Of a stretch of DNA of 64,000 nucleotides, positions 21,001-24,000 are shown piece by piece. Within the stretch, counting starts at the first letter, position 1. Each line of letters starts with the position of its first letter. This stretch comes from Escherichia coli (GTDB lineage Bacteria > Pseudomonadota > Gammaproteobacteria > Enterobacterales > Enterobacteriaceae). Location: assembly GCF_024298765.1 (NCBI RefSeq), contig NZ_CP101210.1; one strand, given 5' to 3'. Made by a program: the position numbers.

Positions 21001-24000
21001 TGTAGTGATTTTGCACGCAGCACGTACTGTCAGAGAAATCAGTGCTCTGACAGTACGCAAGATCATCTCATACTCTTACGATCTGCAATATTATCCTTAA
21101 TGTTTAACCATGACGTGGCGGACGACGGTGTAATCCTCCAGCCCATAAAGTGACATATCCTTGCCGTAACCAGAAAGTTTCTGCCCACCGTGCGGCATTT
21201 CACTTACCAGCATGAAATGGGTATTGACCCAGGTACAACCATATTGCAGCCGTGCGCTGACGCGATGCGCCCTGCCCACATCTTTCGTCCATACCGAAGA
21301 TGCAAGTCCGTACTGGCTGTCATTCGCCCAGTTTACCACCTGTTCTTCGTTGTCGAAGAGTGTAACACTCACTACTGGACCAAATACCTCTTTTTGCACG
21401 ATGGCATCGTCCTGTAATGCGCCAGCCAGCAGCGTCGGCGCATAGTAATAGCCATTACCCTTGCGCTTTTCACCGCCAGTGATCACTTTGATGTGCCCTG
21501 TCGCTTTCGCCTCTTCTACTGCCTTGCTGACGCGTTCGAGATGCGCCAGCGAGCTTAAAGGTCCAAGCTCCGTAGACTCGTCATCCGGCGCACCAGATTT
21601 TAACGTTGCCACCGCAGCACCCAGTTTTTCCACCAGCGTATCGTAAATGCCTTTTTGCGCGTAGATCCGACAAGCCGCTGTACAATCCTGTCCGGCATTG
21701 TAATAGCCAAATGTACGTACACCTTCGACCACTGCCTCAATATCCGCATCATCAAAAACAATCACTGGCGCTTTGCCACCAAGTTCCATATGAGTACGCT
21801 TTATGGACGGCGCGGTATGGCTGATGATGTGTTCCCCAGTGGCGATAGAGCCCGTCAGCGACACCATCCGCACTTTGGGATGACCGGTCAGCGGATCGCC
21901 CACCGTTTTGCCTCTGCCAAACAGTACATTAATCACGCCAGCCGGGAAGATATCTTTCGCCAACTCTGCCAACTTCAACGCTGTCAGCGGGGTAATTTCT
22001 GATGGTTTAAGCACTACGCAGTTCCCTGCCGCCAGCGCCGGAGCCAGTTTCCACGCAGCCATCATCAGCGGATAATTCCACGGTGCGATAGAAGCCACGA
22101 CCCCCAACGGATCGCGACGGATCATCGAAGTATGACCTTCAAGATATTCACCTGCCGCCAGACCATTCAGACAGCGCGCCGCACCAGCGAAAAAGCGAAA
22201 AACATCGACAATCGCCGGGATTTCATCATTGAACGCACTATGCAGCGGTTTGCCACAATTACGGGACTCCAGTTCGGCAAAAACCTGACCATTTTCTTCG
22301 ATAACATCAGCCAGTTTCAGCAGACATTCCGCACGCACTTTCGGCGTGGTTTGCCCCCATTCGGCAAATGCTGCATCTGCCGCGCGAACAGCAGCATCGA
22401 CCTGCTCTGCGGATGCCTCGGCAATCTCCAGTAAAACGTCCCCCGTTGCCGGATTATAGACAGGCTGTTTTTCCCCTTCGCCGCTAACCAGTTCTCCGTT
22501 AATCAGTAACTTATGTTGCATAGCATATTCCTGTATCAGTGGTTATTGACCATTGTCGCCTTCGCGGGTTAGCCACCAGGCCCCCAGGATCGGCAAGGTT
22601 GTTACCAACATAACCAGCAGTGCCACCACGTTAGTTACCGGTACATCACGCGGTCGCCCAAGCTGATTGAGCAACCACAACGGTAACGTTCGTTCATGAC
22701 CTGCCGTAAAGGTCGTAACGATGATTTCATCGAACGACAAGGCAAACGCCAGCATTCCTCCTGCCAGTAACGCCGAACTGAGATTCGGCAACACTACGTA
22801 GCGGAAGGTTTGCCAGCCATTAGCCCCAAGATCCATTGACGCCTCAACCAGACTCCACGAGGTGCGGCGAAAACGGGCGATGACATTGTTAAAGACCACC
22901 ACTACACAAAAAGTCGCATGACCGACCACGATGGTGAAAAATCCCGGCTCCAGATTGATGGTTTTAAAGGCGGTTAATAACGCCAGACCAGTGACAATGC
23001 CCGGCAGCGCAATGGGCAGCAGCAGTAACAGCGAAATGGCGTTTTTGCCGAAAAAGTCTCGTCGCCACAGCGCGGCAGCGGCCAGCGTCCCTAACACCAG
23101 CGCGATTAATGTCGCCAGCGCCGCCACTTTAAGTGACAGTGTCACGGCATCAAGAATATCACTACGCTGTGCTGCCACGCTAAACCAGCGCAGCGTCAGG
23201 CCTTGCGGTGGAAAACTAAACGCCGCATCTTCAGTGTTAAACGCATAAACGGCGATAATCAGAATGGGAAAATGTAAGAAAACCACGCCGCCCCAGGCCG
23301 CCAGTTTGAGGAAAAACGGTGCGCGTTCAGAGTGCATCGAACGCTCCCAGACGTTTCACGAACGCCAGGTAAAGTGCGATGAGTACAATCGGCACTAGGG
23401 TGAATGCCGCCGCCATCGGCATATTGCCAATCGCCCCCTGCTGGGAATAAACCATATTGCCGATAAAATATCCTGGAGGGCCAACCAGCTGCGGGACAAT
23501 AAAATCGCCCAGCGTGAGTGAGAAGGTAAAGATAGAGCCAGCGGCAATACCCGGGATTGCCAGCGGCAGCACCACATAGCGAAAGGTTTGTCGTGGACGT
23601 GCGCCGAGATCAGCTGACGCCTGCAACAATGACGGCGGCAAACGCTCAAGCGCCGCCTGCACCGGGAGGATCATGAACGGCAACCAGATATAGAGAAACA
23701 CCAGAAAGCGCCCCAGCCCGGAAGTTGACAGCGTATTACCTCCCACCGCCGGTAGCGTGAGGAACGCAGTCAGCAGTGGTTCCAGCCCCAGATGTTGTAA
23801 AAACCACTGCGCCACGCCATCTTTTGCCAGCAATAACGTCCAGGCATAGGCTTTCACAATGTAGCTCGCCCACATCGGCAACATTACCGCGATATAAAAA
23901 AACGCTTTCATTTTCCCGCTGGTATAGCGCGCCATATACCACGCCATTGGAAAAGCCAGAATGGCGCTGGCGATAGTGACTGCCACAGCCATAATCAGCG

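What the first reader, a model, noticed from the sequence alone, without database searches (positions are those of the whole stretch)
21023..21057. Perfect 13-bp inverted repeat between yncL and patD without a U-tract
CGTACTGTCAGAG-aaatcagtg-CTCTGACAGTACG forms a strong hairpin between two convergent genes but has no T-run on either strand, so it is not a classic intrinsic terminator. It could be an RNA stability element, a Rho-dependent site or a protein operator.
Basis: seen in the sequence. Interest (0 to 1): 0.25.

Follow-up and report, generated by a model that had tools for sequence, protein, structure and literature searches.

The report
Protective 3′ hairpin of yncL mRNA
The perfect 13-bp inverted repeat is real and is the hairpin at the mature 3′ end of the small yncL mRNA, which is terminated further downstream by Rho; this is an ordinary, already-described kind of element, though well conserved.

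Summary
It is far beyond chance and single-copy per E. coli genome, so it is not REP-like.

Published Term-seq for E. coli MG1655, which is identical to the window here, puts a very strong RNA 3′ end at window 21060. That is on the yncL strand, 3 nt after the stem. The same study's ±bicyclomycin data show Rho-dependent termination of this transcript about 290 nt further on, antisense to patD.

The stem is conserved with compensatory changes in Escherichia, Citrobacter and Salmonella, while the loop varies freely. It stays next to yncL even where patD is displaced or absent. Klebsiella and Raoultella have a canonical terminator in its place.

Best reading: a U-less stem-loop that stops 3′→5′ exonucleases and sets the stable 3′ end of a Rho-terminated mRNA, the class described by Dar & Sorek (2018). 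Trimming itself was not tested. A protein operator, a LexA box and a REP element are rejected. A second role for patD is possible but has no supporting 3′-end data. Low novelty and low interest.

The parts
20905..21000 (+). yncL coding sequence (31-aa stress-response membrane protein). The ORF list shows it from an upstream GTG at 20896.
   Evidence: ORF list; RefSeq annotation of identical DNA
21001..21060 (+). yncL 3′ UTR, from the stop codon to the mapped mature 3′ end
   Evidence: Term-seq 3′ end at MG1655 1517039 (-), which equals window 21060. The window is identical to K-12 over 20942-21333.
21011..21021 (+). Conserved TTGCnGC(G)CA-type motif just 5′ of the hairpin; function unknown
   Evidence: Conserved columns in the Escherichia/Citrobacter/Salmonella alignment
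21023..21035 (+). 5′ arm of the hairpin (CGTACTGTCAGAG)
   Evidence: covariation
21036..21044 (+). Loop (AAATCAGTG). It varies in sequence and length (9-11 nt) between lineages.
21045..21057 (+). 3′ arm of the hairpin (CTCTGACAGTACG)
21060..21060 (+). Experimentally mapped steady-state RNA 3′ end (…CAGTACGCAA-3′), 3 nt after the stem
   Evidence: Adams et al. 2021 Supplementary file 1: 75,265 reads at LB OD 0.4 and 536,300 at LB OD 2.0; a third listing is presumably M63
21058..21119 (+). C-rich, G-poor tract directly after the hairpin; candidate Rho-loading (rut) region
   Evidence: C/G is 2.0 in 21040-21099 (95th percentile of the window) and stays above 1 through 21560
21061..21346 (+). Read-through segment antisense to the patD 3′ end, up to the peak of the published Rho termination region (MG1655 1516753, - strand)
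   Evidence: Adams et al. 2021 Supplementary file 2: -BCM 220 upstream/9 downstream, +BCM 106/72, Rho score 16.6, p = 5e-21
21097..22521 (-). patD (gamma-aminobutyraldehyde dehydrogenase), the convergent neighbour. Its stop codon is 39 nt from the hairpin.

Best explanation
The inverted repeat encodes the 3′-terminal stem-loop of the short, sigma-S-dependent yncL mRNA.

RNA polymerase transcribing yncL is not stopped efficiently by this hairpin because it has no U-tract. It reads on into the antisense strand of patD, where the untranslated, C-rich RNA lets Rho terminate within about 300 nt.

The heterogeneous 3′ tails are then trimmed by 3′→5′ exonucleases (PNPase, RNase II) until they stall at the 13-bp stem. 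That leaves a precise, stable 3′ end 3 nt past the stem at window 21060.

The hairpin therefore sets the 3′ end of the yncL transcript and protects it from decay.

Shown: the hairpin, the position of the 3′ end, Rho-dependent read-through downstream, structural conservation, and linkage to yncL. Inferred: that the end is made by exonucleolytic trimming rather than by release at the hairpin, and that the hairpin raises mRNA stability.
For: 1. Term-seq in MG1655 maps a dominant 3′ end at 1517039 (-), which is window 21060 on the yncL strand, 3 nt after the stem. It appears three times across the file's three condition sheets and reaches 536,300 reads in stationary phase. The window is identical to K-12 across this region.

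2. DirectRNA-seq ±bicyclomycin from the same study lists a Rho termination region on the same strand at window 21346. The downstream/upstream coverage ratio rises from 9/220 to 72/106 (Rho score 16.6, p = 5e-21).

3. There is no U-tract, and a C>G tract follows the stem. [quoted passage not shown]

4. Covariation within Escherichia: 14-pair helix, 95% of cells paired, 4 pairs changed on both sides, 0 of 500 shuffles reaching the score.

5. Covariation across Escherichia, Citrobacter and Salmonella: 13 pairs, 7 with compensatory changes, and no U-tract in any lineage.

6. In about 1,090 E. coli genomes the only difference is three loop bases.

7. The hairpin stays 22 nt after yncL in every context examined:
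- where a 1.3-kb insertion separates it from patD;
- in E. albertii, where IS1 replaces patD;
- in a C. freundii contig whose next gene is co-directional.

8. Other genera have unrelated hairpins at the same place. Pluralibacter and Superficieibacter have U-less ones; Klebsiella and Raoultella have a canonical terminator.

9. The Salmonella ortholog was first catalogued as a discrete sRNA, STnc1110.
Against: No experiment here separates trimming from direct release at the hairpin. The Rho score uses 800-nt windows, so the true termination sites are not resolved.

The Dar & Sorek gene tables could not be read to see whether this 3′ end is in their Rho-dependent set.

Stabilisation of yncL mRNA by the hairpin is inferred from the class, not measured.

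The Term-seq authors labelled the end 'antisense to patD', not yncL. The assignment to yncL is mine, from position and strand.
Confidence: 0.77

Rival explanations
1. The hairpin is a shared, bidirectional 3′ element. Besides yncL, it also forms the protective or terminating 3′ hairpin of the convergent ydcSTUV-patD mRNA. This adds to the best explanation rather than excluding it.
For: The palindrome folds equally well on the patD strand (-22.5 kcal/mol) and lies 39 nt after the patD stop. C exceeds G downstream on that strand too. patD-yncL is in the core convergent 'excludome' of MG1655, meaning overlapping transcripts in at least 50% of 58 RNA-seq samples. The patD-yncL convergent arrangement is also found in Salmonella, C. 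amalonaticus and Superficieibacter.
Against: No 3′ end on the patD strand is listed anywhere in 15170xx in three growth conditions. In E. coli strains with the 1.3-kb insertion, patD has its own different hairpin followed by UUUU, while this hairpin stays with yncL. E. albertii and C. freundii keep the hairpin without an adjacent patD.
Confidence: 0.3
2. Termination happens at the hairpin itself without Rho. It would be either a non-canonical U-less intrinsic terminator or a pause hairpin that positions head-on collisions between RNA polymerases transcribing yncL and patD (the bidirectional-terminator model of Ju 2019 and Wang 2022).
For: The 3′ end is precise and adjacent to the stem. The site lies between convergent genes and does not resemble an intrinsic terminator, as described for collision terminators.
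Against: That class is defined as Rho-independent, whereas bicyclomycin raises downstream read-through here about 17-fold. Transcripts of the two genes overlap. The hairpin is retained in a C. freundii contig with no convergent partner. Only one strand shows a mapped 3′ end.
Confidence: 0.1
3. It is a DNA-level palindromic operator for a dimeric regulator. A LexA-like reading is possible because TACTGTCAGAGAAATCAGTG (21025-21044) contains CTG-N10-CAG.
For: It is a perfect palindrome, and there is a partial match to the LexA consensus (seen in the sequence).
Against: About 1,090 E. coli genomes change the loop GTG to ACT, destroying the CAG, while all 13 pairs remain. Both arms change together across species, with pairing kept but base identity not. 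The site is at the 3′ ends of both genes, not at a promoter. Unrelated hairpins occupy the same place in other genera.
Confidence: 0.02
4. It is a REP/BIME-like or mobile-element-derived repeat with no local function, or a chance palindrome.
For: REP elements often lie between convergent genes. An indel junction lies about 20 nt away.
Against: It is single-copy. The only other 'place' per genome is the palindrome hitting itself on the opposite strand. There is no further copy in the 64-kb window. Rfam has no match. It is conserved with covariation over three genera. The chance expectation is 0.017 per window.
Confidence: 0.01

Closest known systems
Protective 3′ stem-loops at the steady-state ends of Rho-dependent transcripts (Dar & Sorek 2018, NAR, PMC6061677; also Wang et al. 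2019 PNAS, as cited in PMC7815308)
   Same: A stable stem-loop immediately upstream of a precise 3′ end, no U-tract, C>G downstream, and bicyclomycin-sensitive read-through further downstream.
   Different: Exonuclease dependence was not tested for this site. This one is unusually perfect (13/13 pairs) and conserved with covariation from Escherichia to Salmonella. It sits in a 96-nt gap between convergent genes, so the read-through RNA is antisense to patD.
Canonical Rho-independent (intrinsic) terminator
   Same: A G+C-containing hairpin close to a stop codon, with an RNA 3′ end just after it. Klebsiella and Raoultella have a true A-tract/hairpin/T-tract terminator at the homologous position.
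   Different: There is no U-tract on either strand. The 3′ end is 3 nt after the stem, which is closer than an intrinsic terminator's U-tract end would be (the usual distance of about 7-9 nt is from general knowledge and was not checked here). Read-through is strong and Rho-dependent.
Bidirectional 'collision' terminators between convergent genes (Ju et al. 2019; Wang et al. 2022 preprint)
   Same: A hairpin-encoding palindrome between convergent genes that does not look like an intrinsic terminator.
   Different: That class is reported as Rho-independent with ends on both strands. Here termination is Rho-dependent, only the yncL strand has a mapped end, and the hairpin persists without a convergent partner.
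REP/BIME extragenic palindromes
   Same: An intergenic palindrome between convergent genes that can block exonucleases.
   Different: It is single-copy, has no REP consensus, and is locus-specific and orthologously conserved.

Membership tests
Protective 3′ stem-loop of a Rho-dependent transcript (Dar & Sorek class) | An energetically stable stem-loop immediately upstream of the dominant steady-state 3′ end | tested here: met
   Folding energy -21.6 kcal/mol, z -4.5. The Term-seq 3′ end is 3 nt after the stem.
Protective 3′ stem-loop of a Rho-dependent transcript (Dar & Sorek class) | Not followed by a uridine-rich tract | tested here: met
   The tail is CAAGATCATC, and there is no terminator-like hit.
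Protective 3′ stem-loop of a Rho-dependent transcript (Dar & Sorek class) | Downstream transcription is terminated by Rho (read-through on Rho inhibition) | tested here: met
   Published ±BCM DirectRNA-seq: Rho score 16.6, p = 5e-21, at window 21346 on the same strand.
Protective 3′ stem-loop of a Rho-dependent transcript (Dar & Sorek class) | Cytosine-over-guanosine enrichment downstream (rut-like) | tested here: met
   C/G is 2.0 in 21040-21099 (95th percentile) and stays above 1 for about 500 nt. The signal is modest, as it is for the class as a whole.
Protective 3′ stem-loop of a Rho-dependent transcript (Dar & Sorek class) | The 3′ end is produced or held by stalling of 3′→5′ exonucleases (PNPase, RNase II) | not testable with these tools
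   This needs Term-seq or northern blots in pnp/rnb mutants. The Dar & Sorek supplementary tables are not held.
Canonical intrinsic terminator | A hairpin followed directly by a U-tract | tested here: not met
   There is no T-run on either strand.
REP/BIME repeat family | Many dispersed copies per genome sharing a consensus | tested here: not met
   There is one locus per genome in 5,411 genomes. The second 'place' is a self-hit on the opposite strand. No other copy is in the window.
LexA box / palindromic protein operator | Conserved base identity in the half-sites (CTG-N10-CAG for LexA) | tested here: not met
   The CAG is lost in about 1,090 genomes. The arms co-vary, keeping pairing rather than sequence.
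Bidirectional collision terminator (Ju/Wang) | Rho-independent termination, with 3′ ends on both strands at a hairpin between convergent genes | tested here: not met
   Termination is Rho-dependent. No patD-strand 3′ end is listed. The Ju 2019 site list could not be consulted, so the test is incomplete.
Rfam RNA families | A match to any curated covariance model | tested here: not met
   No hit at E ≤ 1 in window 20600-21300.

The most novel reading that the evidence does not exclude
The absence of a U-tract is itself selected. The hairpin would be kept 'leaky' from Escherichia to Salmonella so that sigma-S-driven yncL transcription runs antisense into the 3′ end of patD, forming an excludon whose extent Rho sets. 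That would couple yncL induction to down-regulation of the ydcSTUV-patD putrescine/GABA-aldehyde operon. The conserved TTGCnGC(G)CA motif next to the stem could be a binding site for a 3′-end RNA chaperone such as ProQ or Hfq.

Two observations are consistent with this. U-less hairpins are found in lineages where patD is or was convergent. Klebsiella and Raoultella, where yncL faces another gene, have a canonical terminator. That amounts to only about two independent contrasts.
Probability: 0.1. Interest if true: 0.45.

Novelty: new member of a known kind. Interest (0 to 1): 0.15.

Why it matters
It matters little beyond annotation.

It assigns a very abundant published Term-seq 3′ end, currently labelled 'antisense to patD', to the yncL mRNA. 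It defines that transcript's 3′ UTR as 60 nt.

It also gives a clean, phylogenetically supported example of a U-less protective stem-loop at a Rho-dependent terminator. The example could serve as a test case or synthetic part, with natural compensatory variants and a natural swap to a canonical terminator in Klebsiella.

If the leaky-hairpin/antisense-patD idea were true, it would add a small regulatory link between the sigma-S stress response and putrescine catabolism.

Tried and rejected
**Searches that could not be run or found nothing**
- The PatD-based genome scan gave mostly loci without an adjacent yncL. I replaced it with an exhaustive phmmer search, exact-protein contig look-ups and a degenerate full-length yncL DNA pattern in metagenomes.
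- Rfam has no match.

**Supplementary tables not available or empty**
- Dar & Sorek 2018 and Choe 2022: not held.
- TERMITe tables: no entry for this locus.
- Ju 2019 SEnd-seq paper: not held.
- Stead 2011 RNase E/III supplement: not held. Its main text says only that yncL mRNA levels change in the RNase mutants.

**Ideas rejected**
- LexA-like CTG-N10-CAG half-match: rejected because the common loop variant destroys it.
- REP-like repeat: rejected.
- An outer helix (21006-21014 with 21058-21066) appears in the 96-nt fold. I did not pursue it because the mapped 3′ end at 21060 removes most of its 3′ arm.

**Peripheral**
- The RprA-yncL and KilS-yncL sRNA interactions were noted but do not bear on the hairpin.

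Full report
**1. Observation**

The window is E. coli chromosome, 100% identical to strain 104 over the queried 601-bp segment. CGTACTGTCAGAG (21023-21035) and CTCTGACAGTACG (21045-21057) are perfectly complementary around a 9-nt loop.

The repeat sits in the 96-nt gap between yncL and the convergent patD:
- yncL: 20905-21000, + strand, a 31-aa membrane protein.
- patD: 21097-22521, - strand.

Neither strand has a T-run after the stem, and a terminator scan finds nothing there.

The repeat is not a chance event. Perfect inverted repeats of at least 13 bp with loops of 3-12 nt occur 0.017 times per dinucleotide shuffle of the window. The hairpin folds at -21.6 kcal/mol on the + strand and -22.5 on the - strand, with z-scores of -4.5 and -4.1.

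**2. Not a repeat family and not an operator**

The 13-mer has no other good match in the 64-kb window. A 49-nt query finds one locus in 5,411 of 5,426 complete E. coli genomes. The apparent second place per genome is the palindrome matching itself on the opposite strand (41.9 bits), which I reproduced locally. Rfam has no match.

I noticed a LexA-like CTG-N10-CAG at 21025-21044. The commonest E. coli variant, in about 1,090 genomes, destroys it by changing three loop bases (GTG to ACT) while leaving all 13 pairs intact.

**3. Direct experimental evidence from the literature**

The window is colinear with MG1655 and identical to it from 20942 to 21333. The conversion is K-12 coordinate = 1538099 - window coordinate.

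Adams et al. 2021 (eLife, PMC7815308), Supplementary file 1, lists a Term-seq 3′ end at 1517039 on the minus strand, which is window 21060 on the yncL strand.
- The printed sequence ends …CTCTGACAGTACGCAA, 3 nt after the stem.
- Read counts are 75,265 at LB OD 0.4 and 536,300 at LB OD 2.0. The third listing is presumably the M63 sheet.
- The authors' pipeline labelled it 'antisense to patD'. By strand and position it is the 3′ end of the yncL mRNA.
- No plus-strand (patD) 3′ end is listed anywhere in 15170xx.

Supplementary file 2 of the same paper (DirectRNA-seq ±bicyclomycin) lists a Rho termination region on the same strand, peaking at 1516753, which is window 21346.
- Without drug, coverage is 220 upstream and 9 downstream.
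- With drug, coverage is 106 upstream and 72 downstream.
- The Rho score is 16.6, p = 5e-21.

So polymerases pass the hairpin and are stopped by Rho inside antisense patD. ExcludonFinder independently places patD-yncL among the 165 core convergent pairs with overlapping transcripts in MG1655.

**4. Fit to a known class**

[quoted passage not shown] These ends lie immediately downstream of stable stem-loops that lack U-tracts and are followed by mild C>G enrichment. The authors gave evidence that these stems protect against PNPase and RNase II.

Every feature I could test is met here:
- a stable stem;
- a 3′ end adjacent to it;
- no U-tract;
- bicyclomycin-sensitive read-through;
- C/G of 2.0 in 21040-21099 (95th percentile of the window), staying above 1 for about 500 nt.

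Exonuclease dependence could not be tested.

**5. Comparative evidence**

*Within Escherichia.* Nine distinct sequences (E. coli variants, three divergent lineages, E. albertii) give a 14-pair helix.
- 95.2% of cells are paired.
- Four pairs change on both sides.
- No shuffle out of 500 reaches the covariation score.
- Slid-register controls drop to 22-52% paired.
- The loop changes in sequence and in length (9-11 nt).

*Across genera.* A metagenome scan with a degenerate yncL pattern, with organisms assigned by exact protein look-up, adds Citrobacter freundii, C. amalonaticus and Salmonella enterica. Their hairpins are homologous, sharing a CAGAG…CTCTG core. RNAalifold recovers 13 pairs, 7 of them with compensatory double changes, and none is followed by a U-tract.

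*Other genera.* Pluralibacter and Superficieibacter have unrelated U-less hairpins at the same place. Klebsiella and Raoultella have a textbook A6-hairpin-T6-8 terminator.

Selection therefore acts on having a strong stem after yncL, not on the sequence. That argues for an RNA structure and against a protein operator.

**6. Whose hairpin is it?**

It stays 22 nt after the yncL stop in every context examined:
- In roughly a fifth of E. coli genomes a 1.3-kb insertion carrying a CatB-related acetyltransferase pushes patD 1.4 kb away. In those strains patD has its own 11-bp hairpin followed by UUUU.
- In E. albertii, IS1 replaces patD downstream of yncL.
- In one C. freundii contig the next gene is co-directional and 360 nt away.

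In Salmonella the orthologous transcript was first catalogued as the discrete sigma-S-dependent sRNA STnc1110, which fits a short RNA with a defined, protected end.

A second role for patD is possible. The palindrome folds equally well on that strand, lies 39 nt after the patD stop, and the convergent arrangement is conserved in Salmonella and C. amalonaticus. No mapped 3′ end supports it.

**7. Mechanism and confidence**

Shown:
- the structure;
- the position of the 3′ end;
- Rho-dependent read-through;
- conservation with covariation;
- linkage to yncL.

Inferred:
- that the 21060 end is produced by exonucleases trimming Rho-terminated RNA back to the stem;
- that this prolongs the life of yncL mRNA.

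I put 0.77 on this explanation. I put 0.1 on termination at the hairpin itself (U-less intrinsic termination or the RNAP-collision model, which is described as Rho-independent). I put about 0.3 on the non-exclusive idea that patD also uses the hairpin. An operator, a REP element or chance each get 0.02 or less.

**8. Novelty and verdict**

This is a new, well-documented member of a known kind, and the key 3′-end datum is already public. It has modest annotation value: it re-labels a major Term-seq peak and defines a 60-nt yncL 3′ UTR.

The most novel reading not excluded is that the U-less, leaky design is conserved to drive Rho-limited antisense transcription into patD. I put that at about 0.1.

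Interest: 0.15.

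Noticed in passing
window ~21078-21106; L001 2880-4245: Roughly a fifth of complete E. 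coli genomes carry a ~1.3-kb insertion between the hairpin and patD. About 1,180 of 5,415 genomes lack a full-length match here, and every one I inspected had the insertion. It encodes a CatB-related O-acetyltransferase and is flanked by TTAAT(A/G)TTTA direct repeats. In those strains patD has its own 11-bp hairpin followed by UUUU.
   Followed up: partly
window 21011-21021: A TTGCnGC(G)CA-type motif just 5′ of the hairpin is conserved in Escherichia, Citrobacter and Salmonella although the surrounding 3′ UTR is not. Its function is unknown; it could be a chaperone, RNase or sRNA site.
   Followed up: no
window 21060 (MG1655 1517039, minus strand): The published Term-seq table labels this very abundant 3′ end 'antisense to patD'. 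By strand and position it is the primary 3′ end of yncL, so this is an annotation gap in the dataset.
   Followed up: yes
window 20738-20755: A short hairpin lies between ortT and the yncL promoter, with T-runs on both strands. Term-seq lists a weak 3′ end on the ortT/patD strand at MG1655 1517357, which is window 20742 (848 reads, LB OD 0.4). It could be an ortT leader attenuator or the stop for transcripts reading antisense through yncL. Its fold is weak (z -0.1).
   Followed up: partly
window 63069-63109: A 17-bp perfect inverted repeat (TAACTAATTCGCGTTGC-atgtaca-GCAACGCGAATTAGTTA) with no adjacent T-run. It folds very strongly (z -5.8 and -7.0) and sits in an apparently intergenic gap between ORFs ending at 63005 and 63243.
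   Followed up: partly
window 54146-54175 and 61012-61041: Two further perfect inverted repeats, of 11 bp and 12 bp, that exceed the shuffle expectation. I did not examine them.
   Followed up: no
L088-L090, L104-L117 (Klebsiella/Raoultella yncL loci): At the position of the E. coli U-less hairpin, these genera have a canonical bidirectional intrinsic terminator (AAAAAAGCAGCC…GGCTGCTTTTTT). There yncL faces a different gene rather than patD.
   Followed up: partly
protein P0002 (82 aa): A database 'YncL' representative reads through the normal stop and is translated across the hairpin region into antisense patD. It is probably a stop-codon variant or a gene-calling artefact.
   Followed up: no
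window 20896-20905: The mechanical ORF for yncL starts at GTG 20896 (34 aa), whereas the annotated start is ATG 20905 (31 aa). The Salmonella paper re-annotated its ortholog's start in the same way.
   Followed up: no
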